The notes beneath the pieces were generated by a model. That model searched no databases, was not told the origin of the DNA, and saw nothing but the letters and a program-made list of their open reading frames with translations. This document shows positions 14,869 to 57,247 of a stretch of DNA of 64,000 bases, piece after piece. The DNA is from Burkholderiales bacterium. GTDB lineage: Bacteria; Pseudomonadota; Gammaproteobacteria; Burkholderiales; Eutrophovitaceae. Both the position numbers and the translations under genes were made by a program. The DNA lies in NCBI GenBank assembly GCA_040880425.1, contig JBBDIL010000003.1, forward strand, positions 9,225 through 73,224. The letters are read 5' to 3'. Position 1 is the stretch's first letter; each line of letters starts with the position of its first letter.

Positions 14869-14953
14869 GCAACACTGTACCTAGTCGCGCATTTCTCGGA
14901 GGAGATCGCCTCAGGGCCGTCACCAATATCAAGATCGAAGGGACTCAAGGATC

Positions 14954-17042: not shown

Positions 17043-17492
17043 TCAACCCGACGCGCTGAGCCTCGTGGCCTCGGCCACGGTTCCTGCGTCCGCTTGAAGT
17101 ACTTCATCCAGCATCGGATAGAGCACGTTCTCTTCCTTAATGTTGTGCTGCTGCAGGAAGATCACCAGCATTTCTGCCAGATCCAGGAAGCGGTCCCGCT
17201 CGCCGTTGTCGGCCGCACGCACCATTTCCGCCATGAGCGCGCGCATCTGGTGGTGCTCCGCCCGCATCACCCGGGTCGGTCCCGAGTCCACTCCGGTGCT
17301 GCGCTCGAAGGCGGGGAAAAGCAGTTCTTCCTCGACCGACAGGTGCGTGACCATCGCATCCCGGAACGCGACGAAGTGCTGCGCACATTCCAGAATCTCG
17401 CCTTTGCCCGCGGCATTCTCCGCGAGAGAGAACTGCTCGTCGCATTGGCGATGCACGCGGCCCAGCAATTCGCTGATTTTTTCCATTTGCAT
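17043..17492 (-). CDS. hemerythrin domain-containing protein
   Basis: 149 aa from 'MQMEKISELL'; hemerythrin His/Glu pattern (HFVAFRDAMVTHLSVEEELLFP ... MRAEHHQM ... FLQQHNIKEENVLYP); FNR-like box 58 bp upstream. Confidence 0.75.
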   Translation of the reverse strand: MQMEKISELLGRVHRQCDEQFSLAENAAGKGEILECAQHFVAFRDAMVTHLSVEEELLFPAFERSTGVDSGPTRVMRAEHHQMRALMAEMVRAADNGERDRFLDLAEMLVIFLQQHNIKEENVLYPMLDEVLQADAGTVAEATRLSASG

Positions 17493-17543
17493 GACCTTTC
17501 TGCCATTGCAGAGCATCTTGACCGCTGTCTGGCCCTCCTGGCC

Positions 17544-17557
17544 TTGATTCGGGTCAA
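17544..17557. promoter_or_regulatory. FNR/Dnr-type box TTGATTCGGGTCAA upstream of the hemerythrin operon
   Basis: TTGAT-N4-GTCAA, centred about 58 bp upstream of the hemerythrin ATG. Confidence 0.5.
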
Positions 17558-18531
17558 TTTCGTGGAAAGGCATCGCGGCCCGATGTGGCGTATGCCAGCG
17601 CCGCCAGCAGCATGAGCACGGCGATACCGAGCAGATCGTGTGCAAGCACCATGGCAAACGGGAAATCCGGGCGGATGCCGAACGTGGCAACGGCTGCCTG
17701 CGCAAGTGCGACAGCCGATGTAAAGAGCGCCAGTATGCGCAGTGATCGGGCGGTATGCGAAAGCTGCAGTACCACGCCGCCTGCCGCCACCAGCAGCAAG
17801 ACCGGGGAGAGGCGCTGCGCAAGGCCGAGCGCCTGCCGTGCCGCGTCCGCCGCGGCAGGCTCCAACTGTGCCTCCAGCGCGATAAGCGGATTGAACGCCA
17901 CCAAGTCGGGTCCGCGCCACACCGCACCACATTCTGCAAGCGTCGGGCAGGCGAGCACGACATGATGCGCGTACGCCACGACATTCAGCGCGAAGTACGC
18001 TAAGCCGAGCGACAGCGCGACTGCGGCCGAACCTGCGGTTCTGCGATCCGGGTGCTCAGGCTGCCGAGAGCGGGCACGCAGGTACAGCCACCAGAGAAGC
18101 AGCAGCAGGACCGTCCCCGCCGCGACGTTGCCGAGGATCACCGACGGCGACCCGAATGATTTCGCCATCCGGCCGAGGACGGCAAGGAAAATGGTGAGCA
18201 CGATCACTGCAGTTGCAATGGTCAGGTCGCCCCGTCGCCGCGGTTTCTGCACCCAGGCCAGTCCGACCGCGAGAATCGCCACTGCTCCCATTCCCGAAGC
18301 GGCCAGCCGGTGCAGCGGCCGTGCAATACGATGCAACGGCCGCAGTTCCTCCTGTGCCTGCACCCCGTAACATTCGGGCCAGTCTTCGCAACCGAACCCG
18401 CTCGCGACCAGCCGCATGTAGCCGCTGGTGGTCAGCACCAGAAACATGAGCGCAACGCCGCCGAGCGCCGTCCACCGGAGGAGCGCGCGTTCGTTCCCGT
18501 TGTGCGCAACCAGGCGTGCTGCCCCGCTCAC
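17554..18531 (-). CDS. COX15/CtaA-family protein (Cys-pair type haem A synthase-like)
   Basis: 'GFGCEDWPECYG' and second pair 'ACPTLAECG'; His in TMs (PLHRLAASG, LAHDLLG); about 8 TM. Confidence 0.65.
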   Translation of the reverse strand: MSGAARLVAHNGNERALLRWTALGGVALMFLVLTTSGYMRLVASGFGCEDWPECYGVQAQEELRPLHRIARPLHRLAASGMGAVAILAVGLAWVQKPRRRGDLTIATAVIVLTIFLAVLGRMAKSFGSPSVILGNVAAGTVLLLLLWWLYLRARSRQPEHPDRRTAGSAAVALSLGLAYFALNVVAYAHHVVLACPTLAECGAVWRGPDLVAFNPLIALEAQLEPAAADAARQALGLAQRLSPVLLLVAAGGVVLQLSHTARSLRILALFTSAVALAQAAVATFGIRPDFPFAMVLAHDLLGIAVLMLLAALAYATSGRDAFPRN

Positions 18532-18591: not shown

Positions 18592-19698
18592 TCAGACGAT
18601 CTGCACAGCATGCTCGCCGATCTGACCACGCAGGGCGGGCTCTGTCGCCCGGACCGAAGCGGCTGCCGCGCGCAACTCGTGCATTGCCCAGATGACTGCG
18701 CTCAGCAGCAGCACTGCACCGCCTTGGTGTGCTACAGCCAGCGGAACCGGAACCACCAGCAGCAGCGTCGCGACGCCGAGTGCGATCTGTATTGCAAGCG
18801 CAGCCGCCAATGCATGCACCGCAATGCGTGCGCCGCGCGGCATGCCGACGCGCTGTGCGGTCAGCCAGAATCCCGCCACTAACGCCATCAGCAGCCAGGC
18901 AATCATGCGATGGGTGAATTGCACCGTCGTCATGTTGTTGAAGAAGTTCAGCCACGACGGATCGAGCATTAGCATCCCGGGTGGCAGGAAATGCCCGTTC
19001 ATCAGCGGAAACGTGTTGTAGGCATAGCCGGCGCGGATGCCCGCGACCAGCGCCCCGCTCAGCGCCATGACGAAGATCAGCACGGCGAGGCTACCCGCAT
19101 AACCCGAGAGTCTGAGCAGTGCGCCGCTGCCGGCGGCGCGTGCGGGCCGCAGCAAATCAAGCGCGACCCACAACATCCAGCCATAGATCACAAGTGCGAG
19201 CCCGAAATGCGCAGTCAGACGCAGATGACTGACGCGCGGATTGTCCACCAGACCGCTCTTGACCATGTACCAACCCATCGCACCCTGCAAGGCGCCCAGC
19301 ACGAAGATGCCGCCGAGCTGCCAGCGCAGCGCGCCGCGAATCTCGCCGCGTACGAGAAACCATACGAAGGGAACAAGGAAAGCCAGGCCGATCGCACGCC
19401 CGAGCAGCCGGTGGAAGTATTCCCACCAGAAAATGCCCTTGAACTCCGCCAGCGACATGCCCTTGTTCACCTGAAGATACTCGGGCGTCTGCCGGTACTT
19501 CTCGAAGAGAACATCCCAGTCGTTCTGGCTGAGCGGCGGAATGGTTCCAACGATCGGTTGCCATTCCACGATCGAAAGGCCGGATTGCGTAAGGCGAGTC
19601 GCACCGCCTACCACCACCATCGCGAATACCAGCAGGCAGCAGGCGAACAGCCAAATCATGACATTGCGCTGTGCGGCATCGGCAACATTCTCGCGCAT
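18592..19698 (-). CDS. ctaA: haem A synthase (COX15/CtaA, proteobacterial type)
   Basis: '[44 protein letters not shown]...[17 protein letters not shown]' canonical COX15 N-terminus. Confidence 0.85.
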
Positions 19699-19780: not shown

Positions 19781-19794
19781 TTGATGCGAATCAA
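19781..19794. promoter_or_regulatory. FNR/Dnr-type box TTGATGCGAATCAA in the divergent ctaA / oxidase intergenic region
   Basis: Perfect TTGAT-N4-ATCAA palindrome; about 89 bp from the ctaA start and about 100 bp from the 61-aa ORF start. Confidence 0.65.
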
Positions 19795-19886: not shown

Positions 19887-20072
19887 ATGGCAAACGCTGA
19901 CGATACTTCCAATGCCGGTGAGGGAACGGAAAACACAGGTGAAAAGCTGCCTGTGATGCAGCAGTTGCTCGACAACCCGTTTCTCCTGTTGTTCATCGGT
20001 GTGACCATGCCGACGGTCTTTTACATCATCTGGGGTGTGATGGAGATCGTCACCATTCCGATCGCCCAATAG
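19887..20072 (+). CDS. small single-TM protein preceding oxidase subunit II (candidate subunit IIa-like component)
   Basis: 61 aa, acidic N-terminus then one TM (FLLLFIGVTMPTVFYIIWGVMEIV); GGAG upstream; 42 nt before subunit II. Confidence 0.5.
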   Translation: MANADDTSNAGEGTENTGEKLPVMQQLLDNPFLLLFIGVTMPTVFYIIWGVMEIVTIPIAQ

Positions 20073-20114
20073 CGACGGACGCGCAAGCGGAGCGAAATAA
20101 AAGAGAGGCGAACA

Positions 20115-20660
20115 ATGAGTGCAATACTGCCGCCGAGTACCAAGGCCTGGTGGAAGCAGCCGCTGGATCGCGTGGAAGGCACCTGGATAGCGATTGCCTT
20201 CATTTGGTGCCTGATCATGTTTTTCATGATGCCGTACTGGCATGTTTTCGGAAAACAGAATCTTTCCAACGAGGCCTACCGGGTCACGCCGGAGTACTTC
20301 AGCCAGAAGACGCAGGAAATGGTCGATCAGTACACAGTCCGCACCGAGACTGATCTCCAGACACCGGTGGTACGGCCGCCCGCGGGATCCGACGTTTATC
20401 TCATTGCCCGCCTCTGGTCCTGGTGGCCGATCCTTGAACTGGAGAAGGGGCAGAGCTATCGCCTGCATCTTTCTTCCATGGACTATGTCCACTCGTTCTC
20501 CCTGCAGCCGGAGAACATGAACATCCAGGTGTTTCCCGGCTACATGGGCGTCTACACGATCACGCCAACGCGGGCAGGTACCTATTCGATCGTGTGCAAC
20601 GAGTTCTGCGGCATCGGGCACCACACGATGGTGTCGAATCTTTACGTGGTCGAGAGATAA
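20115..20660 (+). CDS. haem-copper oxidase subunit II, single-TM CuA type (B-family-like)
   Basis: One N-terminal TM; CuA motif 'CNEFCGIGHHTM' with upstream His (YVHSFSL). Confidence 0.85.
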   Translation: MSAILPPSTKAWWKQPLDRVEGTWIAIAFIWCLIMFFMMPYWHVFGKQNLSNEAYRVTPEYFSQKTQEMVDQYTVRTETDLQTPVVRPPAGSDVYLIARLWSWWPILELEKGQSYRLHLSSMDYVHSFSLQPENMNIQVFPGYMGVYTITPTRAGTYSIVCNEFCGIGHHTMVSNLYVVER

Positions 20661-20673
20661 GGGAGACCGGGCA

Positions 20674-22386
20674 ATGAACAACGCTGCAAGTTACCGCATC
20701 TGTCCGGATACCGGATTGCAGTTTCACAAGTCCGCGGAACTGCTGATGAAGGCGAACGCCGTCGCAGGGGTGCTTGCGCTGCTTGTCGGTGGCATTCTTG
20801 CGCTGCTGGTAACGCTGACGCGCTGGCCCGCGGTGCGGCTGCTGCCCGCAGACCAGTTCTACCTGGTTCTGACTGCGCACGGCATCGACATGCTGATCTT
20901 CTGGATCATCTTCTTCGAGATGGCGGTCCTGTACTTCTGCTCGTCGACCCTGCTGCGCAGCCGGCTTGCCACCCCGCGCATCGCCTGGGCGGGATTCTCG
21001 CTGATGGTGATCGGCGCGATCGTCACCAACGTCGCGATCTTCCAGGGGGGATCGAGCGTGATGATGACCTCGTATGTACCGATGCCGGCAGCGCCGCATT
21101 TCTATCTCGGGCTGATCCTGTTTGCGGTCGGTGCGCTGATTGGATGCTTCGTGTTCCTCGGCACGCTGGTGGTCGCCCGCGCGGAACGCACGTACGAGGG
21201 CTCGGTACCGCTGGTGACCTTTGGCGCGCTCACCGCCGCGATCATCGCGATATTCACGATTGCGTCCGGCGCGATCATTTTGATCCCGACTTTTCTGTGG
21301 TCGGTTGGTTACATCAACCAGATTGATCCCCTGATGTACAAGACCGTGTGGTGGGCGTTCGGCCACTCTTCGCAGCAGATCAACGTTTCTGCGCACGTGG
21401 CGGTGTGGTACGCGATCGCGGCGATCGTATTCGGCGCCAAGCCCATGTCCGAGAAGGTGAGCCGCGGGGCGTTCCTGCTGTACATCCTTTTCCTGCAGCT
21501 GGCGAGCGCGCACCATCTGCTGGCCGATCCGGGCATCAGTTCCGAATGGAAGATATTCAATACCAGCTACGCCATGTATCTCGCGGTATTGGCGAGCATG
21601 GTGCACGGGCTGACCGTGCCGGGATCGATCGAAGTCGCCCAGCGGGAGAAAGGCCTGAACCGCGGTCTGTTCGAGTGGATCCGTAAAGCACCATGGGGAA
21701 ATCCGGTGTTCTCGGGGATGTTCATTTCACTCATCGGTTTCGGTTTTCTCGGCGGCATCTCCGGCGTGATGATGGGCACAGAGCAGCTCAACATCATCAT
21801 CCACAACACCATCTACGTGCCGGGGCATTTCCACGCGACCGTGGTGGTGGGCACCACGCTCGCCTTCATGGCGTTGACCTACTTTCTTATTCCGACGCTG
21901 TTCCGGCGGGAGATGATCATGCCCGGGCTGGCGAAGTGGCAGCCCTACCTGTTCGGAATCGGGATGTCGCTGTTCTCGCTGTTCATGATGGGCGCGGGCA
22001 CGCTCGGCGTCTCGCGCCGGCACTGGGACATGGCGTTCAGCGGCGCGCAAATGCCGTACGAGTATCCCGGCACCGCCTACCTGATGATGGGGTTGATGGC
22101 GCTGGCGGGTATCGCCGCCACCGTCGGTGGCGTGATCTACCTGCTGGTGACTGTCGGCTCGCTGCTCTGGGGCCGGAGGCTGGACGCGAAGGACACCTAT
22201 ACCGCGAAACTCGTGCCGCATCGACTGCCGCCGGTCGCAGCCGCGATCGAGGGCCATGGCGGCCTCGGCATCAAGGGGTTCGCCGCACCGGGTACGTTCG
22301 TATTCGCGATGGTGTTCCTTGCGGCGTTCGTCCTGTACTACTTCGTGAACTGGAAGTACCTGTCGGAAATCTGGTACATCGGGTGA
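20674..22386 (+). CDS. haem-copper oxidase subunit I, B-family-like but lacking the HPxVY cross-link tyrosine (possible NO reductase of the B-derived NOR clades)
   Basis: Collinear with ba3 subunit I as recalled (DPLMYKTVWWAFGH..., LASAHHLLADPGISSEWK, LFEWIRKAPWGNP, HNTIYVPGHFHATV); the ba3 'GHPIVY' position reads 'GHSSQQ'. Confidence 0.8.
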   Translation: MNNAASYRICPDTGLQFHKSAELLMKANAVAGVLALLVGGILALLVTLTRWPAVRLLPADQFYLVLTAHGIDMLIFWIIFFEMAVLYFCSSTLLRSRLATPRIAWAGFSLMVIGAIVTNVAIFQGGSSVMMTSYVPMPAAPHFYLGLILFAVGALIGCFVFLGTLVVARAERTYEGSVPLVTFGALTAAIIAIFTIASGAIILIPTFLWSVGYINQIDPLMYKTVWWAFGHSSQQINVSAHVAVWYAIAAIVFGAKPMSEKVSRGAFLLYILFLQLASAHHLLADPGISSEWKIFNTSYAMYLAVLASMVHGLTVPGSIEVAQREKGLNRGLFEWIRKAPWGNPVFSGMFISLIGFGFLGGISGVMMGTEQLNIIIHNTIYVPGHFHATVVVGTTLAFMALTYFLIPTLFRREMIMPGLAKWQPYLFGIGMSLFSLFMMGAGTLGVSRRHWDMAFSGAQMPYEYPGTAYLMMGLMALAGIAATVGGVIYLLVTVGSLLWGRRLDAKDTYTAKLVPHRLPPVAAAIEGHGGLGIKGFAAPGTFVFAMVFLAAFVLYYFVNWKYLSEIWYIG

Positions 22387-22390
22387 ACAC

Positions 22391-23320
22391 ATGCGCAGCC
22401 CAAACTGCGTGACTGAGATGCAGCGCCAGGAGGTGCGCGGCCCGCGGACAAAGCTCGCCGAGGATGTGCGCGCCGTCACGGGTCTGTTCAAGATGCGCAT
22501 CGGCGTCGTCATCACCTGGACTGCGCTGGCCGCGGCCGCGACGACGCCGGGACAAGGACTCCCGGCATGGAAGTTCGCCGTACTCGCGTTCTCGGTGTTC
22601 ATCGCCTCGGCTGCCGCGGGCGCACTCAACCAGTATCTCGAGCGCGACATAGACGCGCGGATGTCACGCACCCGCAACCGTCCGTTCGTCACCGGCGCCG
22701 CGGCCCACGACGGGCGCTGGGTCTGGCTGATCATGGCGCTGACGGCCGGCGCGGTGCTGGCGGCCGCGTACTCCATCAACATGCTGACTGCGCTGTACGT
22801 GTTTCTGGGAGCGTTCTTCTACGCCGTGGTGTACACGGCGTGGCTGAAACGGCGCACCTGGATGAACATCGTGATCGGCGGACTGGCCGGCAGCTTCGCC
22901 GTGCTCGCCGGCGCAGCTGCAGTAGCGCCAGGGCTGCCGATGCAGGCGCTGATCCTGGCGATCGTGCTGTTCCTGTGGACGCCGTCGCACTTCTGGAGTC
23001 TGGCAATCGCCTACCGGGAAGATTATCTGGCGGCAAAGGTGCCGATGCTGCCGGTGGTGATCGGCAACGCCCGCACCGCGCGCGTCATCCTCGCGAACAC
23101 GGTGGTCCTTGTGGCGGTGTCCCTGCTGCCGGTGTTCTACGGCAGTGGCTGGATCTACCTTGCCGGCGCCGCGGCCGGCGGCGCCTGGTTCATCCTGCGC
23201 AATATCGACCTGGTACGCCGGCCGGACGACAGGCGCACGGCAATGAGAAGTTTCTTCGCGTCGCTGGTGCAGCTCTCGCTGCTGCTCGCCGCGGCGATGA
23301 TCGACGCGGCCCTGCTTTGA
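22391..23320 (+). CDS. ctaB: protohaem IX farnesyltransferase (haem O synthase)
   Basis: UbiA-family; 'NQYLERDIDARMSRTRNRP' motif, about 8-9 TM; start may be the internal Met at 22418. Confidence 0.85.
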   Translation: MRSPNCVTEMQRQEVRGPRTKLAEDVRAVTGLFKMRIGVVITWTALAAAATTPGQGLPAWKFAVLAFSVFIASAAAGALNQYLERDIDARMSRTRNRPFVTGAAAHDGRWVWLIMALTAGAVLAAAYSINMLTALYVFLGAFFYAVVYTAWLKRRTWMNIVIGGLAGSFAVLAGAAAVAPGLPMQALILAIVLFLWTPSHFWSLAIAYREDYLAAKVPMLPVVIGNARTARVILANTVVLVAVSLLPVFYGSGWIYLAGAAAGGAWFILRNIDLVRRPDDRRTAMRSFFASLVQLSLLLAAAMIDAALL

Positions 23321-23403
23321 AGGTGCACGTTTCGGCCGCGGAAAATGCAGATTGAGGCGGGAGCAGGGTTTTCCCGCTCTCTGCGGTGCGAGTGTGGAAC
23401 GAA

Positions 23404-24219
23404 ATGACTCGAATACGTTTCCGGTGCCTGCGATGGTTCGCTGCGACCGTGGCAGCCGTCTCGTCGCTCGGCCTCATGGCAGCGACCAGCGTGCAGCCGG
23501 ATGAAACGGCCGCGCTCGAGTTCAGCCAGGGCGTCCTCGGCAAGAGGGTGCCCGACTACGCGTTTGCGACGCATGCCGGAGAATCGCGTCGTCTGCGCGA
23601 CTACCGCGGCAAACCGCTGCTGGTGACATTCGTCTATACAGCGTGTTTCCAGGCCTGCCCGGTCGGAGTGAAATTCCTCGACCAGGCCGTGGCCCAGGCG
23701 CACAAGGTGATCGGCGCAGACCGGTTTTCCGTCGCGGTCATCGGCTTCAATCAGCCTTTCGATACGCCTGAGGCAATGCGCGCGTTCGCCGTGCGTCACG
23801 GCCTGGTTGATTCCGGGTGGGATTTCGTGAGCCCCGATGCCGGATCGGTGCAGGCGTTGACGGATGATTTCGGTTTCAGCTGGTACGCGACGCCGAAAGG
23901 GTTCGATCACATCGCGCAGGTTACGCTGCTCGATGCAGAAGGGCGCGTGTATCGGCAGATCTACGGCGAGACCTTCGAGGCGCGTGAGCTGATCGAACCC
24001 ATGAGGCAGCTCATCGCCGGGACGCCCGCCCCTGCGGGAGACTGGCGTGCATTCGTCGACAAGGTGCGCCTGTTGTGCACCGTGTACGATCGCTCCAGCG
24101 GTCGCTACCGGCTCGATTATTCTCTGTTCCTGGGTATCGCGATCGGCCTGGGCATTCTCGGTGCCGTGGTCGCCAGCCTGGTGCACGAGTGGCGGCGCAA
24201 CCGGCGTCCGGCGGTCTGA
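23404..24219 (+). CDS. SCO/SenC-family copper chaperone with C-terminal TM extension
   Basis: Thioredoxin fold with 'YTACFQACP' CxxxC and downstream His (FDHIAQV); extra C-terminal TM (LFLGIAIGLGILGAVVASLV); track ORF starts at GTG 23386. Confidence 0.75.
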   Translation: MTRIRFRCLRWFAATVAAVSSLGLMAATSVQPDETAALEFSQGVLGKRVPDYAFATHAGESRRLRDYRGKPLLVTFVYTACFQACPVGVKFLDQAVAQAHKVIGADRFSVAVIGFNQPFDTPEAMRAFAVRHGLVDSGWDFVSPDAGSVQALTDDFGFSWYATPKGFDHIAQVTLLDAEGRVYRQIYGETFEARELIEPMRQLIAGTPAPAGDWRAFVDKVRLLCTVYDRSSGRYRLDYSLFLGIAIGLGILGAVVASLVHEWRRNRRPAV

Positions 24220-24309: not shown

Positions 24310-24323
24310 TTGATGCGCATCAA
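24310..24323. promoter_or_regulatory. FNR/Dnr-type box TTGATGCGCATCAA upstream of the cytochrome b fusion / HCO-like module
   Basis: Perfect palindrome; about 134 bp upstream of the proposed GTG 24451. Confidence 0.6.
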
Positions 24324-24450: not shown

Positions 24451-26325
24451 GTGATCGCGCCTCTGCAGCGCGGCGGGCAATGGCTGTTCATGCGCGTCGA
24501 GGGCGGATTCAATCTGTTCTTCGGGCAGGCGCTCAACCCGCTCTACCACCTGGGCGCAATCACCTTCCTGCTTTTCTGGATTGCGCTTGCGAGCGGTATC
24601 TATCTATACGTGTTCTTCGACACCAGCGTAACGGGGGCGTATGACTCGGTGGCGCGCCTGACGCACGGTCAGTGGTATCTGGGCGGCGTCATGCGCAGCC
24701 TGCATCGCTATGCATCCGACGGCATGGTCATCACCATGCTGTTGCACATGGTGCGGTATTTCGTTTTCGATCGTTACCGGAACTTCCGCTGGTTCTCCTG
24801 GGTGACCGGGGTGATTCTGCTTTGGCTGGTATACGCTTCCGGCATCAACGGCTACATGCTGCCGTGGGACCGTCTCGCCCAGTTCGTGGCGACCGCAACT
24901 GCGGAGTGGATCGACTGGTTCCCCATGTTCGCGGGCGCGCTTGCTCGCAACTTCAGCTTCGAGGGATCGGTGAACGACCGGCTCTTCTCTCTGCTGGCAT
25001 TCCTGCACATCGGTATCCCGCTCGGCCTGTTGATCGCAATGTGGGTGCACACCCAGCGCGTGCCCGGCGCCAGGAGCAGTCCGCCGCCGGCGATCGCGGC
25101 GATGACCGGCGTCGCGCTGCTGGTGCTCGCGGCGGTGAAGCCGGCGGTCAGCCAGGGGCGCGCGGATCTCTCCACCGCAGTCGCGGCGGTCGGGCTCGAC
25201 TGGTTCTACCTCCCACTCTATCCGTTGATCTACGCATGGTCGCCGCGCGATGTCTGGGCGCTGGCGCTGGGCGCAACCTTGCTGCTGTTCGCGATCCCCT
25301 GGCTTGGACGCCGGCGGCGCGAGCGGCTGGCGGAGTTCAAGGCGACTTTCCGTCCGGGCAATCTTTCTGCCCCGGTGCGTGCCGGAGAGACGCTGCTGGA
25401 AGCCGGACTGCGCCAGGGCATACCGCTGCCTTACGACTGCCGCAACGGCGGCTGCGGCGTGTGCAAGGCGGATCTGCTGCAGGGCGCCGTGGACTACGGC
25501 GTGTACCAGAAGACGGCGCTATCCGACGAGGAGAAGGAAGATGGCAGTCTGCTGCTGTGTTGCGCTACCCCGCTATCGGATGTGGACATCGAACTGGAGA
25601 CATCGCGCGAGCACACCGCCACGGTGGTGGACATGCAGCAGCTTGCGCCGGATGTCATGCTGCTCAGGCTAAGGCCCAACAGGCCGGTTTCGTACGTGGC
25701 AGGTCAGTACATCAACATCGTGCTGGAGAACGGCGATACCCGCAGCTTTTCCTTTGCGACCGCGCCTGGCGCGGGTGAACTGATCGAACTGCATGTGCGC
25801 CTGATTCCGGGCGGCAGGTTTACCACGCATGTCTTCACGCGCATGTGCGAAGGCGACCGGCTGCGTTTCCGCGGGCCGTTTGGCGCTTTCACGTTGCAGG
25901 AGGACAGTCCGAGACCGATTATCTTTGTGGCGGGCGCTACCGGATTTGCGCCGGTGAAGAGCATGCTCGAGTACGCGTTCGAGCATGGCATCCGCCGCCC
26001 CATGGTGCTGTACTGGGGTGTGCGCTCGCGTAAAGACCTGTACATGGCGGAAATGCCGGAGTGCTGGGCGCGCGAGCACCAGAATTTCAGCTTTGTGCCG
26101 GTGCTGTCCGAACCGCAGCCGGAAGATGAGTGGACCGGAAGGACCGGCATGGTGCACGAAGCAATACTCGAGGACTTCCCTACGTTGCAGGGCTACGAGC
26201 TGTACGCCTGCGGGTCGATGCAGATGGTGGAGTCCGCGCATCCGGAGTTCATCGCGCAGGGGCTGTCCGAGGATGCCTGTTTCTCCGATGCCTTCACCCA
26301 CGCAGCGCAGGGATCACCGGCATGA
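24451..26325 (+). CDS. fusion protein: di-haem cytochrome b (bc1/b6 N-terminal type) + plant-type [2Fe-2S] ferredoxin + FNR-like FAD/NAD(P)H reductase
   Basis: His pairs 14 residues apart in two helices (SLHRYASDGMVITMLLH; FLHIGIPLGLLIAMWVH), 'NGYMLPWD'; 'CRNGGCGVCK...LLCC'; 'RSFSFA', 'GPFG', 'GATGFAPVKSM'. Start moved to GTG 24451 (GGAG upstream; N-terminus aligns with the paralog; an FNR box sits at the track start 24310). Confidence 0.8.
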   Translation: MIAPLQRGGQWLFMRVEGGFNLFFGQALNPLYHLGAITFLLFWIALASGIYLYVFFDTSVTGAYDSVARLTHGQWYLGGVMRSLHRYASDGMVITMLLHMVRYFVFDRYRNFRWFSWVTGVILLWLVYASGINGYMLPWDRLAQFVATATAEWIDWFPMFAGALARNFSFEGSVNDRLFSLLAFLHIGIPLGLLIAMWVHTQRVPGARSSPPPAIAAMTGVALLVLAAVKPAVSQGRADLSTAVAAVGLDWFYLPLYPLIYAWSPRDVWALALGATLLLFAIPWLGRRRRERLAEFKATFRPGNLSAPVRAGETLLEAGLRQGIPLPYDCRNGGCGVCKADLLQGAVDYGVYQKTALSDEEKEDGSLLLCCATPLSDVDIELETSREHTATVVDMQQLAPDVMLLRLRPNRPVSYVAGQYINIVLENGDTRSFSFATAPGAGELIELHVRLIPGGRFTTHVFTRMCEGDRLRFRGPFGAFTLQEDSPRPIIFVAGATGFAPVKSMLEYAFEHGIRRPMVLYWGVRSRKDLYMAEMPECWAREHQNFSFVPVLSEPQPEDEWTGRTGMVHEAILEDFPTLQGYELYACGSMQMVESAHPEFIAQGLSEDACFSDAFTHAAQGSPA

Positions 26326-26873
26326 ACACGCGAGCCGCATCCAGCGTGACCGTGCGCTACATTGGCCAGGCGCTGCTGTATGGACTGTTTGTCACGGCCA
26401 TCGGCTATTTTTCGACTTCGCCGGAGTACACGCATCTTCGGCCGCGAGAGGCGCTGATGAAGGTCTCCTTCACGCATGCCGCACAGCGGGTCGGAGATTG
26501 CCGCATGCGCACCGATGAGGAACTCGCTCGCATGCCGCCGAACATGCGCATCCGTGAAGACTGCCCGCGCGAGCGCGCGCCGGTGACGATCGAGGTCGCT
26601 CTGGACGGACAGATGCACTTCCGCGAAGTGCTTAACCCGACCGGTTTGGCGCGCGACGGCGCGGCCTCCATGTACCGTCGCATCGTCGTCCCTGCCGGCG
26701 AGCACCATGTTGCGGCACGCCTGTCCGACCGGCGCGATGGCGCGTTCAATCATGCGAAAGAGCAGACCATTCTGCTTGCTCCGGCCGATATCCTGGTGAT
26801 TGAGTTCCATGCAACCGCCGGCGGTTTCGATTTCCTTTATCCGCTCAGGGAGGCGCAGCTTGATCGAGATTAA
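26322..26873 (+). CDS. hypothetical membrane-anchored protein (one N-terminal TM plus about 140-aa soluble domain)
   Basis: ATG 26322 overlaps the upstream stop (ATGA); TM 'IGQALLYGLFVTAIGYF'; no recognisable cofactor motif. Confidence 0.55.
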   Translation: MNTRAASSVTVRYIGQALLYGLFVTAIGYFSTSPEYTHLRPREALMKVSFTHAAQRVGDCRMRTDEELARMPPNMRIREDCPRERAPVTIEVALDGQMHFREVLNPTGLARDGAASMYRRIVVPAGEHHVAARLSDRRDGAFNHAKEQTILLAPADILVIEFHATAGGFDFLYPLREAQLDRD

Positions 26874-26930
26874 GTTTCCAGCTGTGTACCCCCTGTAGGA
26901 TGGTTTCAATGTCGGGTGGTGAACTCAATC

Positions 26931-28451
26931 ATGCTCTCGGGCATCCGGGTCTCTTTGCTGCACGGCTGGCGCGCGCTCGAGACGACGTTCGATCGAGCGT
27001 TTGGCGCACGCGACAATCCGCTGCGCCACCTGGGCGCTCTGGGTTTCTACTTCTTCTGGGTAGCGGCGGCGAGCGGGATCTACCTGTATGTGTTTTTCGA
27101 TACCAGCGTCGCCGGTGCGTACCGCAGTGTGGAGGCGCTGAGGCACCAGCCGTGGCTGATCGGCAGCGTCGCGCGCAGCCTGCATCGCTATGCTTCCGAC
27201 GGCTTCGTGGCGGTGATGTTTCTCCATCTCGTGAAGGAAACGCTGGCCGCCCACTACCGCGGATTCCGTCTGTTCTCGTGGCTTACCGGTGTGCCGCTGA
27301 TCTGGCTGGTATACGTGTCCGGAATCGGTGGCTACTGGCTGGTATGGGACCGCGTTGCGCAGTTTTCCGCTGCCGCGACGATGGAATGGCTCGACTGGCT
27401 GCCGCTTTTCGGCGAACCGCTTGCGAGAAATTTTCTGCATGCCGGCAGCGTGAGCGACCGCTTTTTCTCGTTGCTTGTGTTCGTGCACATTGGCGTGCCG
27501 CTGCTGCTGCTGCTCGGCATGTGGGTGCATATCCAGCGCGTGAGCCTGGCCGACACCGCGCCGCCGCGCCGGTTGGGCTGGGGCGTGGCTGTCGCGCTGC
27601 TCGCGCTTTCACTGCTGAAACCGGCGCTCAGCGCGCCGCCCGCCCATCTCGATACCGAACCGGCGCGCGTCGCGCTCGACTGGTTCTATCTGTTCGTGCA
27701 TCCGCTGGCCTACCGGACATCCGCCGGGTTCGCCTGGGCGCTGGTGTTCGGTGCGACCCTGTTGCTCGCCGCCGCGCCGTTGTTGTCACGCGCGCGGCCC
27801 GAACCAGTGGCGAAAGTCGATCCGGAAAACTGCAACGGCTGCGGCCGCTGCGTGGCCGATTGTCCGTACGCCGCGGTACAGCTGGTGCCGCATTCGTTGA
27901 AAGGGAAGTACCGTATGCAGGCGCAGGTCGACCCGGACCTGTGCGCAGCCTGCGGCATCTGCGCCGGCGCCTGTCCGTCCTCGACACCGTTTCGCCGGAT
28001 GGAGACGCTGGTGAGCGGTATCGACATGCCTTTGCTGCCGATCGGCGTGTTACGGGGACGGCTCGATTCTGCGCTTTCCCGGCTCGTCAGCAGACCGCGC
28101 GTGGTGATTTTCGGCTGCGAATGCGCGGCGGACGTAAACACGCTTGCGGCGCCGGGCGTTGCAAGTTTCAGCCTGCCGTGTATCGGCAACCTGCCGCCTT
28201 CGTTTGTCGAGTACGCGCTGCGCAACGGCGCGGACCGCGTGCTGGTGACTGGCTGCCGCGAGGGCGACTGCGCGTACCGGTTCGGCAATCGGTGGATCGA
28301 GCAGCGATTCTCAGGGGAGCGCGAACCTCATTTGCGCCGGCATGTGGCGCGCGAGCGCGTGCGCATCGCCTGGGCGAACGCCGGCGACGAGGAACGGCTG
28401 CGTGCTCAACTGACGGAATTCTGCGAGCCCCGGGCGCGGCGTTTGTCGTGA
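26931..28451 (+). CDS. fusion protein: di-haem cytochrome b + 2x[4Fe-4S] ferredoxin + MvhD/FlpD-like domain
   Basis: Paralogous cyt b domain (SLHRYASDGFVAVMFLH; FVHIGVPLLLLLGMWVH; GGYWLVWD); 'CNGCGRCVADCP' and 'CAACGICAGACP'; 'VVIFGCECAAD...LPCIGNLPPSFVEYALRNGADRVLVTGCREGDCAYRFGNRW' FlpD/MvhD pattern; alternative GTG start 26916. Confidence 0.8.
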   Translation: MLSGIRVSLLHGWRALETTFDRAFGARDNPLRHLGALGFYFFWVAAASGIYLYVFFDTSVAGAYRSVEALRHQPWLIGSVARSLHRYASDGFVAVMFLHLVKETLAAHYRGFRLFSWLTGVPLIWLVYVSGIGGYWLVWDRVAQFSAAATMEWLDWLPLFGEPLARNFLHAGSVSDRFFSLLVFVHIGVPLLLLLGMWVHIQRVSLADTAPPRRLGWGVAVALLALSLLKPALSAPPAHLDTEPARVALDWFYLFVHPLAYRTSAGFAWALVFGATLLLAAAPLLSRARPEPVAKVDPENCNGCGRCVADCPYAAVQLVPHSLKGKYRMQAQVDPDLCAACGICAGACPSSTPFRRMETLVSGIDMPLLPIGVLRGRLDSALSRLVSRPRVVIFGCECAADVNTLAAPGVASFSLPCIGNLPPSFVEYALRNGADRVLVTGCREGDCAYRFGNRWIEQRFSGEREPHLRRHVARERVRIAWANAGDEERLRAQLTEFCEPRARRLS

Positions 28452-28467: not shown

Positions 28468-29904
28468 ATGAGATCAGGCGGTCAGGTTAACGGCACCGCA
28501 GGAACTTTCGGCCACCGTCTCGTGCTGCCGGCCCTGCCGCAGGTGCTCTATACGCTTGATGTGCCGCGGGATGCGCGCGCACGGCTGGCGCTGAACTGGA
28601 TCGTTCTCGGTCTGGTAGCGTTGATCGGAGCAGGCGTGTTTTCGGCCCTGCTGGTGGCATCGCGCACCCCCTTCGTGCAGAGCGTGTTTCCGCTGGTGGA
28701 CTTCTTCCGGGTTGCGCTGGTGGTGCATGTGGACCTTTCCGTGCTGGTCTGGTTTCTGGCGTTTGCCGGCGCGCTTTGGAGTCTGAACAGTACCCGGCGC
28801 TGGATGCCGCTGGGCTGGACTGCGCTTGCCGCCTGCGCCCTTGCCACACTGATGATGGTGATCGCACCGTTTGTCGGTCAGCCGGTGCCCATCATGAGCA
28901 ACTACATCCCGGTGCTCGACAGCCCGCTGTTTCGATGGTCACTGGTGGTGTTCGCCGCAGGGGTGGCGGCGGTTCTGCTGCGCGGCATGGGCGCGGTCCC
29001 CAAGGTGGGTGCGCAACTGGACGGAGCCGGCGTGCTGCGTTTCGGGCTGAACGCCGCGGCGATTTCAGCGGCGGTTGCGCTGGGCGCGTTCATCTGGTCC
29101 TGGCTCGCAGTGCCGCCGGCGCTCGACGGCAAGGCCTACTACGAATTGCTGTTCTGGGGCGGCGGCCACGTGCTGCAGTTCACCTGGACGCTGCTCATGT
29201 TCGCCGCATGGCTGTGGCTCGCCGGCGAAGGCGGTTGCCCGATTCCGCTCACGCCCCGCGTGACACTGCTGCTGTTCGCCATCACGCTCGCAATCGTGTT
29301 TCTGACTCCGGTGATCTATCTTGCGCACGACGTTACTTCAGTCGAGCATCACAAGCTGTTCACCTGGCAGATGCGCTTCGGCGGCGGGCTGACAATCCTG
29401 CCGATGGCGCTCGCGGTGGTGATTGCGCTGGCGCGCGCCGCGCCGGCCCGTGCCGAGGAGAAACCGCTGCGTGCGGCGCTGATCATGTCGCTCGCTCTGT
29501 TCGCCTTTGGAGGCCTGATCGGTGTGGGCATCGACGGCTCGAATGTGAAAGTCCCGGCGCATTATCACGGCAGCATCGTCGGCGTAACACTCGCGTTCAT
29601 GGGCGTGGTCTATCTCCTGCTGCCGCGCCTGGGGTTTGCGTCCCCGCCTTCGCGCGCTGCCGCACTGCAATGCTGGCTCTACGGTGCGGGGCAGATGCTG
29701 CATATCACCGGGCTGGTGTGGTCCGGCGGCTACGGCGTGCAGCGCAAGGTCGCAGGAGCGGAGCAAGGCCTGGATGCGATCGAGAAGATTGCGGGCATGG
29801 CACTGATGGGTTTCGGCGGCCTCGTCGCCGTGATCGGAGGACTGATGTTCCTGGTGATCGTGCTGCGCGTGCTGGCGCGCGGACGTACGGGTGCGCCACG
29901 GTAG
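28468..29904 (+). CDS. orphan haem-copper-oxidase subunit I-like protein (12-TM core, no cognate subunit II)
   Basis: All six canonical HCO His present: H87 (VVHVD), H234 (GGGHVLQF), H294/H295 (VEHHK), H365/H367 (VPAHYHGSIVGVTLAF, compare VPGHFHATVVVGTTLAF in the 570-aa subunit I); Phe, not Tyr, at His234+4; GGGGGAG SD. Confidence 0.7.
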   Translation: MRSGGQVNGTAGTFGHRLVLPALPQVLYTLDVPRDARARLALNWIVLGLVALIGAGVFSALLVASRTPFVQSVFPLVDFFRVALVVHVDLSVLVWFLAFAGALWSLNSTRRWMPLGWTALAACALATLMMVIAPFVGQPVPIMSNYIPVLDSPLFRWSLVVFAAGVAAVLLRGMGAVPKVGAQLDGAGVLRFGLNAAAISAAVALGAFIWSWLAVPPALDGKAYYELLFWGGGHVLQFTWTLLMFAAWLWLAGEGGCPIPLTPRVTLLLFAITLAIVFLTPVIYLAHDVTSVEHHKLFTWQMRFGGGLTILPMALAVVIALARAAPARAEEKPLRAALIMSLALFAFGGLIGVGIDGSNVKVPAHYHGSIVGVTLAFMGVVYLLLPRLGFASPPSRAAALQCWLYGAGQMLHITGLVWSGGYGVQRKVAGAEQGLDAIEKIAGMALMGFGGLVAVIGGLMFLVIVLRVLARGRTGAPR

Positions 29905-31379: not shown

Positions 31380-31383
31380 CGCG

Positions 31384-32286: not shown

Positions 32287-32777
32287 GTTTCTTCCCGCTG
32301 CCGTTTCCATCGTCTCTCGTCGACGCACGGGCGATGATCTCTTCGCTTGCCGGCCTGCCGGGTTCGCTGGCGCTCGTGACTGCATTGAACGTCGCCTTCG
32401 AGAGATTTCCGGAGGGACTCGATTCTCTGGAGGGTAAGCGCGTGTGCATGCATACGACCGATCTGGGATTGCGCGCCTATCTCACACTCCGCGGCCAGGC
32501 GTTCGTGGTCTGCCACCCGGTATCGGATCCGGATGTCCTGATCCGGGCAAGTGCGGCGGACTTTTTTCGACTCGCGAGCCGAAAAGCGGACGCCGACACG
32601 CTGTTCTTCGCGCGTCGCCTGCTGATCGAAGGCGACACCGAGGCAGGACTCCTGCTGAAGAATGCGCTGGATGCGCTTGACCTGGCCCGGCTGCTGCACA
32701 ATCCGCCTGCTCTGCATCGGCTTCTGGCGGTGCTCCGCGCAAGCTTCCGCGGTCCGGCTGTCAAACCCTGGAGCTAA
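32283..32777 (+). CDS. ubiT: SCP2 domain protein UbiT (ubiquinone biosynthesis accessory factor)
   Basis: SCP2 sterol-carrier pattern ('IRASAADFFRLASRKADADTLFFARRLLIEGDTEAGLLLKNALD'); ATGA overlap with ubiV. Confidence 0.7.
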   Translation: MSFFPLPFPSSLVDARAMISSLAGLPGSLALVTALNVAFERFPEGLDSLEGKRVCMHTTDLGLRAYLTLRGQAFVVCHPVSDPDVLIRASAADFFRLASRKADADTLFFARRLLIEGDTEAGLLLKNALDALDLARLLHNPPALHRLLAVLRASFRGPAVKPWS

Positions 32778-49990: not shown

Positions 49991-50049
49991 CTCTTTCATG
50001 CGGTTCTCGCATTTCACGTTTTCTCGGGTCTTCGTGTACCGCATCTGCG

Positions 50050-51926: not shown

Positions 51927-51930
51927 GTGG

Positions 51931-54890: not shown

Positions 54891-54934
54891 ATCGAGTGTG
54901 CAGAATGATTCTGCTTTGTTTGTGAGCCAACCTG

Positions 54935-55425: not shown

Positions 55426-57247
<1,822 letters not shown>

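What the first reader, a model, noticed from the sequence alone, without database searches (positions are those of the whole stretch)
19887..24219. B-family-like oxidase operon whose subunit I has HSSQQ in place of the HPxVY cross-link tyrosine motif, with ctaB and SCO: sNOR-like candidate NO reductase
As I recall the Thermus ba3 sequence, subunit I is collinear with it through the catalytic core, but 'WWTGHPIVY' reads 'WWAFGHSSQQ'. The Tyr that is covalently linked to the CuB His in O2-reducing HCOs is therefore absent at that position. Subunit II keeps a full CuA site. The operon carries an SCO/SenC gene and is preceded by a perfect FNR/Dnr box sharing the TTGATGCG core with the nirS box. 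Comparative genomics has proposed B-derived NOR clades (sNOR/eNOR/bNOR), with sNOR described next to senC in ammonia oxidisers. This locus fits that picture, but the adjacent ctaA/ctaB haem A/O genes are more typical of oxidases.
Basis: partly seen in the sequence, partly recalled or inferred. Interest (0 to 1): 0.7.

Follow-up and report, generated by a model that had tools for sequence, protein, structure and literature searches.

The report
eNOR-type nitric oxide reductase operon
This is an operon for eNOR, a known nitric-oxide-reducing relative of B-type cytochrome oxidases that uses haem A, sitting in a denitrification island of an uncultured Burkholderiales bacterium and labelled in databases as a cbb3-type oxidase; it is a clear but ordinary member of a published family, not an sNOR.

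Summary
Subunit I (20674-22386) aligns with Thermus ba3 over residues 30-493. It keeps all six metal and haem histidines, but reads GH231-S-S-Q-Q235, with Gln235 at the position of the cross-link Tyr237. Subunit II has a complete CuA site. ctaB, an SCO gene and a perfect FNR/Dnr box are present.

The family call needs correcting. In the published scheme the residue at this position is Asn in sNOR and Gln in eNOR.

GHS[SA]QQ is present in all 80 related genome loci. A Gln-bearing clade is separated from canonical HPxVY oxidases (91-97% NJ bootstrap). It includes a Thermus plasmid gene with the His/Lys haem ligation reported for some eNORs, Thermomicrobium and a haloarchaeon. A 2026 preprint describes the same operon in Ferrigenium straubiae.

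The less-charted part lies downstream. Two cytochrome b fusion proteins, a membrane-anchored beta-sandwich protein and a second haem-copper-oxidase paralogue without the His-His pair follow eNOR in about 90% of loci.

Verdict: new member of a known kind, modest interest.

The parts
19781..19794 (.). Perfect FNR/Dnr-type box TTGATGCGAATCAA in the divergent ctaA / eNOR promoter region
   Evidence: It lies 93 bp upstream of the ATG at 19887 and 83 bp from the ctaA start at 19698. FNR-like boxes occur upstream in 28 of 72 related loci, 12 of them perfect.
19887..20072 (+). 61-aa single-helix membrane protein, probably a small third subunit placed like ba3 subunit IIa (cbaD)
   Evidence: Conserved in 75 of 80 loci. 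A small ORF also precedes subunit II in the Defluviimonas, Thermus and Thermomicrobium loci. No Pfam match. The subunit role is inferred from gene order only.
20115..20660 (+). eNOR subunit II: one TM helix plus a cupredoxin domain with a full CuA site (H126, C161, C165, H169, M172)
   Evidence: Pfam COX2. Best PDB matches are the ba3 CuA domain at E about 3e-15, with the ligands aligned. Residue numbers.
20674..22386 (+). eNOR subunit I (570 aa): haem ligands H69/H387 (low-spin) and H385 (high-spin); metal-B ligands H231, H280, H281; Gln235 in place of the cross-link Tyr
   Evidence: [quoted passage not shown]
21349..21378 (+). Active-site motif WWAFGHSSQQ (residues 226-235)
   Evidence: Alignment to ba3. 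Invariant in the Gln clade and Tyr in every other group compared.
22391..23320 (+). ctaB, haem O synthase. It may supply the prenylated haem precursor for eNOR (inferred).
   Evidence: TIGR01473 at 264 bits, above its cut-off. Present in 43 of 51 long loci.
23386..24219 (+). SCO1/SenC copper chaperone with a CxxxC motif, probably for CuA assembly
   Evidence: PF02630. Present in 49 of 51 long loci.
18592..19698 (-). ctaA / COX15 haem A synthase, transcribed divergently from the shared FNR/Dnr box
   Evidence: PF02628 at 368 bits. Present in 19 of 80 loci.
17554..18531 (-). Second, divergent CtaA-like membrane protein with Cys pairs in both halves
   Evidence: PF02628 at 51 bits. Weak homologues (27-37% identity) in 16 of 80 loci.
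17043..17495 (-). Hemerythrin-domain protein (DnrN/YtfE-like), with an FNR-like box at 17544-17557 upstream
   Evidence: PF01814; weak RIC/DnrN matches in NCBIfam. The start codon is inferred.
24310..24323 (.). Second perfect FNR/Dnr box, TTGATGCGCATCAA, ahead of the downstream module
24490..26325 (+). Cytochrome b (N-terminal) - 2Fe-2S ferredoxin - FAD/NAD(P) reductase fusion
   Evidence: Pfam domains. Present in 35 of 51 long loci. Same architecture as 'Cytbc1CCC-like protein 1' of F. straubiae. Start uncertain (24451 GTG or 24490 ATG).
26322..26873 (+). 183-aa protein: one TM helix plus a beta-sandwich domain; no known family
   Evidence: No Pfam or NCBIfam match. AF2 pLDDT 92. Only generic beta-sandwich fold matches. 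Present in 49 of 51 loci, usually directly upstream of HCO2.
26916..28451 (+). Cytochrome b (N-terminal) - 2x[4Fe-4S] - FlpD/MvhD-like fusion
   Evidence: Pfam. Present in 50 of 51 long loci. An imperfect FNR-like box lies at 26860-26873.
28468..29904 (+). HCO2: a 478-aa divergent haem-copper-oxidase-fold paralogue. It keeps the haem ligands and the first metal-B His, has Phe at the Tyr position, and lacks the canonical His-His pair.
   Evidence: hhalign probability 100% with a gap at the HH position. AF2 pLDDT 83, TM 0.70 to ba3. Present in 45 of 51 loci. Listed as 'eNOR scaffold protein' in the F. straubiae supplement.
30384..32777 (+). ubiU, ubiV, ubiT: O2-independent ubiquinone biosynthesis
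   Evidence: NCBIfam equivalog models, all above their cut-offs.
58827..59519 (+). Crp/FNR-family regulator without the FNR Cys cluster (Dnr/NnrR type), with an E-x-x-S-R recognition helix; candidate binder of the TTGAT-N4-ATCAA boxes
   Evidence: Pfam cNMP_binding plus HTH_Crp_2; sequence. Binding is inferred.
55426..57153 (-). nirS (cytochrome cd1 nitrite reductase), the NO source. Its upstream box at 57234-57247 shares TTGATGCG.

Best explanation
The locus encodes an eNOR-family nitric oxide reductase with its own cofactor-assembly genes. The eNOR family is a B-family-derived, CuA-containing, haem-A-type haem-copper oxidoreductase.

Proposed mechanism:
- A Dnr-type regulator, encoded in the window, would switch on the divergent ctaA and eNOR transcription units through the box at 19781-19794 when oxygen is low and NO or nitrite is present.
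- CtaB and CtaA make the prenylated, formylated haem, and SCO loads copper into CuA.
- In the enzyme, electrons pass from a periplasmic carrier to CuA (H126, C161, C165, H169, M172 of subunit II), then to the low-spin haem (H69/H387), then to the binuclear site. That site is the high-spin haem (H385) plus a metal held by H231, H280 and H281.
- There, 2 NO + 2 e- + 2 H+ give N2O + H2O. This two-electron reaction does not need the His-Tyr cofactor, and Gln235 occupies its place.
- Protons probably come from the cytoplasm through a K-channel-like path (S259, Y246, T314, H311, S308, and perhaps E21 of subunit II). That would make the reaction electrogenic.

Shown here: gene content, ligand conservation, the Tyr-to-Gln replacement, clade membership, synteny and the regulatory boxes.

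Inferred from published work on relatives: NO reductase activity, lack of O2 reduction, and haem As content.

Inferred only: the identity of the B metal, proton uptake, and regulator binding.
For: 1. Gln235 aligns with ba3 Tyr237, and all six His ligands are kept.
2. Published diagnostics give Gln for eNOR, Asn for sNOR, Glu for cNOR/qNOR and Tyr for oxidases (PMC8756737).
3. R. marinus eNOR reduces NO, does not reduce O2, and contains haem As. Many eNOR operons carry ctaA, and the M. magneticum AMB-1 neighbourhood has ctaA and ctaB (PMC11214002 and its preprint). Here ctaB is in the operon and ctaA is divergent.
4. NJ trees show the Gln-bearing clade monophyletic in 97.5% and 91.5% of 200 bootstraps, separate from HPxVY oxidases. 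The clade holds the window protein, Burkholderiales MAGs, Defluviimonas at 63% identity, a T. thermophilus plasmid gene at 47%, T. roseum at 43% and Natrarchaeobius at 41%.
5. The Thermus member has GHGAQQ plus H-F-K, the His/Lys low-spin ligation that Murali et al. report for some eNORs.
6. K-channel positions are kept: S308, T314, Y246 and S259, with H311 in place of T312. This matches the published description of eNOR.
7. The F. straubiae operon classified as eNOR has the same genes in the same order. They are eNOR II, eNOR I, haem o synthase, sco1, a cyt b-FeS-FAD-NADH fusion, a hypothetical protein, a subunit-I-like 'scaffold' protein and a cyt b-FeS/FlpD fusion. eNOR I/II were its most abundant haem-copper transcripts under denitrifying conditions, and the proteins were found in the proteome.
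8. Context: nirS, nirF/DL/J, a Dnr-type regulator, and 9 FNR-type boxes against 0.89 expected.
Against: - No activity, haem or metal data exist for this protein or for any close (>60% identity) relative. Function is transferred from an enzyme whose sequence I could not retrieve. Its identity to this protein is therefore unknown. The distant Gln-clade members I could retrieve are 41-47% identical.
- I could not place R. marinus Rmar_0161, an sNOR, a bNOR, a gNOR or an nNOR sequence in the tree, because none was retrievable. The trees are simple NJ trees.
- One Tyr, Y299, is invariant and specific to the Gln clade. Its distance from H231 could not be measured because no model coordinates were available.
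- Haem A synthase needs O2, yet the operon sits in an FNR/Dnr-controlled anaerobic island (nrdDG, ubiUVT). This is left unexplained.
- The measured turnover of R. marinus eNOR is low (0.68 NO per second), so a detoxifying rather than respiratory role is possible.
Confidence: 0.85

Rival explanations
1. It is an sNOR: the senC-linked NO reductase of ammonia oxidisers.
For: It has lost the Tyr, has a CuA subunit, and has an SCO/SenC gene two genes downstream. sNOR is also derived from the B family.
Against: The sNOR active-site residue is Asn; here it is Gln. sNOR is reported to lack the Ser309 equivalent and to have a different channel; S308 is present here. No Asn-type sequence appears among the full-length proteins in the 150 best cluster representatives, or among the nine plasmid hits whose sequences I read. 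The haem A genes and the operon layout match eNOR.
Confidence: 0.03
2. It is still an O2-reducing B-type oxidase whose cross-link Tyr has moved to another helix, as in cbb3 oxidases.
For: A Tyr migration did occur in the C family. The Gln clade has a clade-specific invariant Tyr, Y299, and also Y270 on helix VII. The haem A genes are typical of oxidases.
Against: The cbb3-like position, 6 residues before the HH pair, is Leu274. Y270 is also present in the Tyr-retaining 'QY' relatives, so it is not a replacement. Y299 lies about 9 residues above S308 on helix VIII, probably too far from H231; this is an inference. Murali et al. found no migrated Tyr in models of these families, and R. marinus eNOR showed no O2 reduction.
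Confidence: 0.05
3. The enzyme acts on a different substrate or has a mainly protective role, for example NO scavenging during microaerobic growth. It would work as part of a larger complex with the downstream cytochrome b fusions and HCO2, rather than as a stand-alone respiratory NOR.
For: The downstream module accompanies eNOR in 45-50 of 51 long loci. R. marinus eNOR turns over slowly. The M. magnetotacticum homologue was purified as a haemoprotein without a known activity. A hemerythrin/RIC-like gene lies next to the locus. The F. straubiae authors propose a supercomplex.
Against: N2O production from NO was shown directly for a family member. The nirS context and the Dnr boxes fit a denitrification step.
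Confidence: 0.07

Closest known systems
eNOR of Rhodothermus marinus DSM 4252 (Rmar_0161; Murali et al. 2024, PMC11214002)
   Same: B-family-derived; CuA subunit II; Gln in place of the cross-link Tyr; three His for the B metal; K-channel-like residues; link to haem A biosynthesis.
   Different: It comes from another phylum, and I could not retrieve its sequence, so its identity to this protein is unknown. The downstream cytochrome b / HCO2 module was not checked in R. marinus.
eNOR operon of Ferrigenium straubiae KS (bioRxiv 10.64898/2026.01.22.701106)
   Same: As described there, the same genes in the same order: eNOR II, eNOR I, haem o synthase, sco1, cyt b-FeS-FAD-NADH fusion, hypothetical protein, subunit-I-like 'scaffold' protein, cyt b-FeS/FlpD fusion. 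It is expressed under denitrifying conditions.
   Different: In F. straubiae a PerM gene lies between the 'scaffold' gene and the second cytochrome b fusion, and there is no ctaA in the operon. Here two CtaA-type genes lie divergently upstream and ubiUVT follow.
'Cytochrome a1-like' haemoprotein of Magnetospirillum magnetotacticum (Tamegai 1993; Tanimura and Fukumori 2000, as cited in PMC11214002)
   Same: A haem-a-containing member of the haem-copper family without cytochrome c oxidase activity, now assigned to eNOR. ctaA and ctaB lie in the neighbourhood in M. magneticum AMB-1.
   Different: One Magnetospirillaceae MAG locus (L057) is 76-77% identical.
Thermus thermophilus cytochrome ba3 (B-family O2 reductase, PDB 1EHK/3S8F)
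   Same: Collinear fold (E about 5e-47); all His ligands; CuA site; small-ORF / subunit II / subunit I gene order; K-channel Ser, Thr and Tyr positions.
   Different: About 27-30% identity. Y237 is replaced by Q235, P234-I235-V236 by S-S-Q, T312 by H311 and P308 by Ala. ba3 has haem b at the low-spin site.
sNOR (norSY-senC of ammonia oxidisers) and bNOR (qCuANOR of Bacillus azotoformans)
   Same: B-derived, Tyr-less, CuA-type NO reductases. sNOR is linked to senC.
   Different: Published active-site residue: Asn in sNOR. bNOR is reported to have the same active site as sNOR. sNOR lacks the Ser309 equivalent. bNOR is restricted to Bacillales.

Membership tests
eNOR | Gln at the position of the cross-linked Tyr (ba3 Y237), the criterion used to define eNOR sequences in PMC8756737 after Hemp and Gennis 2008 | tested here: met
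   Q235 aligns with Y237. The column is invariant Gln in the clade and Tyr in the QY and B groups. 80 of 80 loci carry GHS[SA]QQ.
eNOR | Three His ligands for the B metal and the His ligands of both haems are retained | tested here: met
   H231, H280, H281, H69, H385 and H387.
eNOR | CuA-containing cupredoxin subunit II encoded immediately upstream | tested here: met
   H126, C161, C165, H169 and M172 align with the ba3 CuA ligands.
eNOR | Branches with eNOR sequences and apart from canonical B-family oxidases | tested here: inconclusive
   The Gln clade is monophyletic at 91.5-97.5% NJ bootstrap and separate from HPxVY oxidases. It includes a Thermus member with the His/Lys ligation reported for some eNORs, and a haloarchaeal member. 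The characterised R. marinus sequence and curated sNOR, bNOR, gNOR and nNOR references could not be included.
eNOR | Conserved K-channel-like polar residues resembling those of the B family | tested here: met
   S308 (for S309), T314 (for T315), Y246 (for Y248), S259 (for S261), and H311 in place of T312.
eNOR | Haem A-type cofactor (haem As), with ctaA/ctaB often in the operon | tested here: met
   The gene-level part is met: ctaB is in the operon and ctaA is divergent. The haem content itself cannot be tested with these tools.
eNOR | Reduces NO to N2O and does not reduce O2 | not testable with these tools
   Shown only for R. marinus eNOR.
sNOR | Asn at the cross-link Tyr position (same active site as bNOR) | tested here: not met
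   The residue is Gln235.
sNOR | Ser309 equivalent missing, replaced by a Glu at a different site | tested here: not met
   S308 is present and nearly invariant. The sNOR-specific Glu position is not defined in the text available to me.
B-family O2 reductase | His-Tyr cross-link motif H-P-x-V-Y on helix VI | tested here: not met
   The motif is H-S-S-Q-Q. There is no Tyr at the cbb3-type helix VII position, which is L274.
cNOR/qNOR | Glu ligand for FeB; a cytochrome c subunit or a fused N-terminal domain; relation to the C family | tested here: not met
   The best structural relatives by sequence are ba3 oxidases, and subunit II is a CuA cupredoxin.

The most novel reading that the evidence does not exclude
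The proteobacterial eNOR may not be a two-subunit enzyme. It could be the core of a conserved module of about ten genes. In that module a second, HH-less haem-copper-fold protein (HCO2) sits with a membrane-anchored beta-sandwich partner and two cytochrome b fusion proteins. One fusion carries 2Fe-2S, FAD and NAD(P) domains; the other carries two 4Fe-4S clusters and an MvhD-like domain. Together they could form a new membrane redox complex that links cytoplasmic NAD(P)H or ferredoxin-level carriers to NO reduction, to haem or cofactor maturation under low oxygen, or to reverse electron flow.

HCO2 would be a haem-copper-fold protein that keeps both haems but has lost the canonical B-metal site. 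The F. straubiae preprint has noticed the genes, calling them 'scaffold protein' and 'quinol:NAD+ oxidoreductase'. No function has been established, and the preprint calls the two cytochrome b fusion genes 'rather unusual', whereas they recur in most related loci examined here.
Probability: 0.3. Interest if true: 0.6.

Novelty: new member of a known kind. Interest (0 to 1): 0.3.

Why it matters
eNOR genes are routinely annotated as cbb3-type or generic cytochrome c oxidase subunit I, and this one is too (MEX0957763.1). Genomes that carry nirS but no cNOR or qNOR are then read as incomplete denitrifiers or NO accumulators. Calling this locus correctly gives the Burkholderiales MAG a route from nitrite to N2O that may also conserve energy. 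This bears on N2O budgets and on reading denitrification potential from metagenomes.

The family and its link to haem A are already published, so the finding adds no new principle. The open questions lie elsewhere. One is the tightly co-inherited downstream module (HCO2 and the cytochrome b fusions). The other is how an O2-dependent haem A pathway serves an enzyme under anaerobic-type control.

Tried and rejected
- **Genome-collection scan.** I used a 6-sequence alignment in the hope of reaching Rhodothermus, Magnetospirillum and Accumulibacter. Only the 80 closest loci (at least 71% identity) came back, so no characterised eNOR sequence was obtained.
- **sNOR reference.** I looked for one among plasmid-borne homologues from genera listed as sNOR hosts. 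The Deinococcus and Geobacillus hits, and also the Brevibacillus, Methylobacterium, Rhizobium and Caballeronia hits, all carry the Tyr and are ordinary oxidases. No direct sNOR comparison was therefore possible.
- **Supplements.** The supplementary data of the two key papers are not held.
- **HCO2 identity.** I asked whether HCO2 could be the published 'N2O red' or gNOR family. The text gives too little to decide. HCO2 lacks a cupredoxin partner by fold search, and its His-His pair is absent rather than replaced by Asp, so I did not file it under either family.
- **The 183-aa protein.** I tested whether it is a cupredoxin-like subunit II. The AF2 model is confident, but Foldseek gives only generic beta-sandwich matches with TM about 0.36. 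Inconclusive.
- **Structure model of subunit I.** I did not build one, because the tool returns no coordinates and the Tyr-to-His distances could not have been measured.


Full report
**What is there.** The interval 19887-24219 holds five co-oriented genes:
- a 61-aa single-helix ORF (19887-20072);
- a 181-aa cupredoxin subunit II (20115-20660; Pfam COX2);
- a 570-aa haem-copper subunit I (20674-22386; Pfam COX1 at 236 bits, far below every NCBIfam oxidase cut-off);
- haem O synthase ctaB (22391-23320; TIGR01473 above its cut-off);
- an SCO1/SenC protein with a CxxxC motif (23386-24219).

Transcribed divergently are a COX15/CtaA haem A synthase (18592-19698), a second weak CtaA-like gene (17554-18531) and a hemerythrin-domain gene. 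[quoted passage not shown]

**Checking the observation.** phmmer against PDB sequences puts T. thermophilus ba3 first (E about 5e-47) and aligns residues 30-493 with ba3 26-488. A-family oxidases score E of 5e-11 or worse.
- 'WWAFGHSSQQ' lies opposite 'FWWTGHPIVY', so H231 corresponds to H233 and Q235 to Y237.
- H69, H280/H281 and H385/H387 match ba3 H72, H282/H283 and H384/H386.
- Subunit II aligns best with the ba3 CuA domain. H126, C161, C165, H169 and M172 lie opposite the CuA ligands.
- TTGATGCGAATCAA at 19781-19794 is a perfect TTGAT-N4-ATCAA box, 93 bp before the first ATG.
- The box upstream of nirS (57234-57247) shares TTGATGCG, as does a second perfect box at 24310-24323.
- The window has 9 such boxes with at most 1 mismatch, against 0.89 expected. 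None of 100 shuffles reached 9.

The Tyr-to-Gln change is not an error. 119 of the 120 best database homologues and all 80 related genome loci read GHS[SA]QQ.

**Which family.** Murali et al. 2024 (PMC11214002) describe four B-family-related, Tyr-less families with homologues of the CuA subunit: eNOR, sNOR, gNOR and nNOR. bNOR is a further B-derived NOR.
- They purified eNOR from Rhodothermus marinus. It reduces NO (0.68 per second) and does not reduce O2.
- It carries a modified haem A (haem As) in both haem sites.
[quoted passage not shown] - Schwartz et al. 2022 (PMC8756737) defined eNOR sequences by a conserved Gln at the cross-link Tyr position. Their table, after Hemp and Gennis 2008, lists oxidases Y, cNOR and qNOR E, sNOR N, and eNOR Q.
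- Murali et al. add that the Ser309 equivalent is kept in eNOR, bNOR and B1 oxidases but is missing in sNOR.

Here the residue is Gln and S308 occupies the Ser309 position. The other K-channel positions are also kept: T314 for T315, Y246 for Y248 and S259 for S261, with H311 for T312. By every sequence criterion I could find, this is an eNOR and not an sNOR.

**Relatives and phylogeny.** A search of 1.84 billion cluster representatives gave three kinds of full-length relatives:
- Gln-type: GH..QQ, 41-54% identity, including a Natrarchaeobius protein;
- Tyr-retaining archaeal 'GH..QY' proteins: 33-45% identity, from Hodarchaeales and Thermoproteota;
- canonical GHP.VY B oxidases: 26-30% identity.

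No sequence with Asn at this position was among the full-length proteins in the top 150 representatives.

tblastn against plasmids added named Gln-type members:
- Defluviimonas (63% identity), with the same operon;
- T. thermophilus plasmid genes (45-47% identity);
- the Thermomicrobium roseum megaplasmid (43% identity).

The Thermus protein reads GHGAQQ and H-F-K at the haem-ligand motif. This is the His/Lys low-spin ligation that Murali et al. report for 'some eNORs'. It ties this clade to their family independently of the Gln.

In NJ trees with 200 bootstraps, the Gln clade is monophyletic in 97.5% of replicates (7 members) and 91.5% (10 members). It is separate from the canonical B clade.

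Limits: these are distance trees. The R. marinus protein and reference sNOR, bNOR, gNOR and nNOR sequences could not be retrieved. The genome scan returned only the 80 closest loci. The plasmid hits from Deinococcus and Geobacillus, genera listed for sNOR, turned out to be ordinary Tyr-bearing oxidases.

**A relocated tyrosine?** The cbb3-type position, six residues before the HH pair on helix VII, is Leu274.
- Y270 is conserved, but it is also present in the Tyr-retaining QY relatives, so it is not a replacement.
- Y246 is the universal K-channel Tyr.
- The only Tyr that is invariant and specific to the Gln clade is Y299, near the top of helix VIII (ba3 L301). By helix geometry it should lie well above S308 and away from H231. 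I could not measure this.
- Murali et al. state that models of these families show no migrated Tyr.

**Context and regulation.** The window is an anaerobic and denitrification island.
- It holds nirS (55426-57153), nirF-, nirDL- and nirJ-type genes, cysG, nrdD and nrdG.
- It holds ubiU, ubiV and ubiT for O2-independent ubiquinone synthesis.
- It holds a Crp/FNR-family regulator without the FNR Cys cluster and with an E-x-x-S-R recognition helix (58827-59519). This is a plausible Dnr/NnrR-type binder of the boxes.
- FNR-like boxes lie upstream of the operon in 28 of 72 related loci.

One tension remains. Haem A synthase needs O2, yet the genes share an anaerobic-type box. The same puzzle is raised for Ferrigenium straubiae.

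**Prior description of the operon.** A 2026 preprint on F. straubiae KS (10.64898/2026.01.22.701106) reclassifies its 'second coxAB' as eNOR.
- It lists the operon as eNOR II, eNOR I, haem o synthase, sco1 and an 'eNOR scaffold protein of unknown function'.
- It adds two genes with cytochrome b domains: one with FeS, FAD and NADH domains, the other with FeS domains.
- eNOR I/II were the most abundant haem-copper transcripts under denitrifying Fe(II) oxidation, and the proteins were in the proteome.
- Its supplement shows that the 'scaffold protein' is a hypothetical protein assigned to KO K02274 (oxidase subunit I). It is preceded by another hypothetical protein.

That is the arrangement found downstream here.

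**The downstream module (outside the finding's coordinates).** After the second perfect box (24310) come:
- a cytochrome b / 2Fe-2S / FAD-NAD(P) fusion (about 24490-26325);
- a 183-aa protein (26322-26873);
- a cytochrome b / 2x[4Fe-4S] / FlpD fusion (26916-28451);
- a 478-aa haem-copper-like protein, 'HCO2' (28468-29904).

Among 51 related loci with at least 8 kb downstream of subunit I, the counts are: SCO 49, cyt b-FeS 50, the 183-aa gene 49, HCO2 45 and cyt b-FNR 35. The 183-aa gene usually lies directly before HCO2.

HCO2 has no PDB sequence match and only 41.6 bits to Pfam COX1.
- Profile-profile alignment to the eNOR/B profile gives 100% probability (E 2e-39).
- Its AF2 model (pLDDT 83) superposes on ba3 at TM 0.70.
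- Across 118 homologues it keeps H87, H234, H365 and H367. Phe sits at the Tyr position.
- The canonical His-His pair falls in an alignment gap. A nearby E293-H294 is conserved, but H295 is His in only half of the sequences.
- The 183-aa protein is one TM helix plus a confident beta-sandwich (pLDDT 92), without a specific fold match.

The function of this module is unknown. Its near-obligate linkage to proteobacterial eNOR is the most interesting lead from this locus.

**Verdict.** The best explanation is an eNOR operon with dedicated haem A and copper assembly genes under Dnr/FNR-type control (confidence about 0.85). The family, its haem A link and even this operon layout are published, so the locus is a new member of a known kind. 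Interest is modest (0.3).

Noticed in passing
window 28468-29904 (+): A second, very divergent haem-copper-oxidase-fold protein (HCO2, MEX0957769.1). It keeps the haem ligands and one metal-B His, has Phe at the Tyr position, and lacks the canonical His-His pair. It follows eNOR in 45 of 51 long related loci. The F. straubiae preprint supplement calls it 'eNOR scaffold protein'. Its function is unknown.
   Followed up: partly
window 24490-26325 (+) and 26916-28451 (+): Two membrane cytochrome b (N-terminal) fusion proteins. One carries 2Fe-2S ferredoxin plus FAD/NAD(P) reductase domains. The other carries two 4Fe-4S clusters plus an FlpD/MvhD-like domain. Each has its own FNR-like box (24310 perfect, 26860 imperfect). 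They are conserved next to eNOR in 35 and 50 of 51 loci. The preprint calls them 'rather unusual', but they are the rule in this clade.
   Followed up: partly
window 26322-26873 (+): A 183-aa protein with no known family: one TM helix plus a beta-sandwich with two invariant Cys (AF2 pLDDT 92). It usually lies directly upstream of HCO2, in the position of a subunit II. Fold search found no cupredoxin match.
   Followed up: partly
window 17554-18531 (-): A second, weakly CtaA-like membrane protein with CxxxxxC pairs in both halves, next to the canonical COX15-type ctaA. Two haem A synthase-like genes share an FNR/Dnr box in an anaerobic island, although haem A synthesis needs O2.
   Followed up: no
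window 30384-32777 (+); 37672-39714 and 42102-42860 (+): ubiU/ubiV/ubiT (O2-independent ubiquinone synthesis) directly follow HCO2. The anaerobic ribonucleotide reductase genes nrdD and nrdG lie nearby. FNR-like boxes sit at 37554 and 42882.
   Followed up: no
window 48272-57153 (-), 57298-58722 (+), 58827-59519 (+): A nir cluster: nirS, nirF-like, nirDL, nirJ-type radical SAM and a long cd1-domain ORF. cysG is divergent, and a Dnr/NnrR-type Crp-family regulator follows. No cNOR or qNOR gene was seen in the window.
   Followed up: partly
window 15382-16809 (-) / 14945-16768 (-): Two long overlapping ORFs without family matches, next to the hemerythrin gene. One gives a faint NnrS match (E 0.24). 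It is unclear which one, if either, is real.
   Followed up: no
proteins P0181, P0197, P0207: Cluster representatives about 30% identical to subunit I. They are full length (about 550 aa) but lack all haem and metal histidines. They form their own clade in 99.5% of bootstraps: a ligand-less haem-copper-oxidase-like family.
   Followed up: no
proteins P0131, P0132, P0135, P0155: The closest Tyr-retaining relatives of the eNOR clade are 'GH..QY' proteins. Two could be traced to archaeal MAGs (Hodarchaeales, Thermoproteota). They share the eNOR-type Gln at +3, the helix II Glu and Y270. They look like the oxidase lineage from which eNOR arose.
   Followed up: no
L083 7983-9665 (T. thermophilus plasmid pHB5018d): A Thermus plasmid eNOR homologue with GHGAQQ and H-F-K (Lys in place of the low-spin haem His). 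It is followed by an Rrf2-family regulator and a DUF542 gene, and a multicopper oxidase-domain gene lies nearby. It is annotated as a cbb3-type oxidase.
   Followed up: partly
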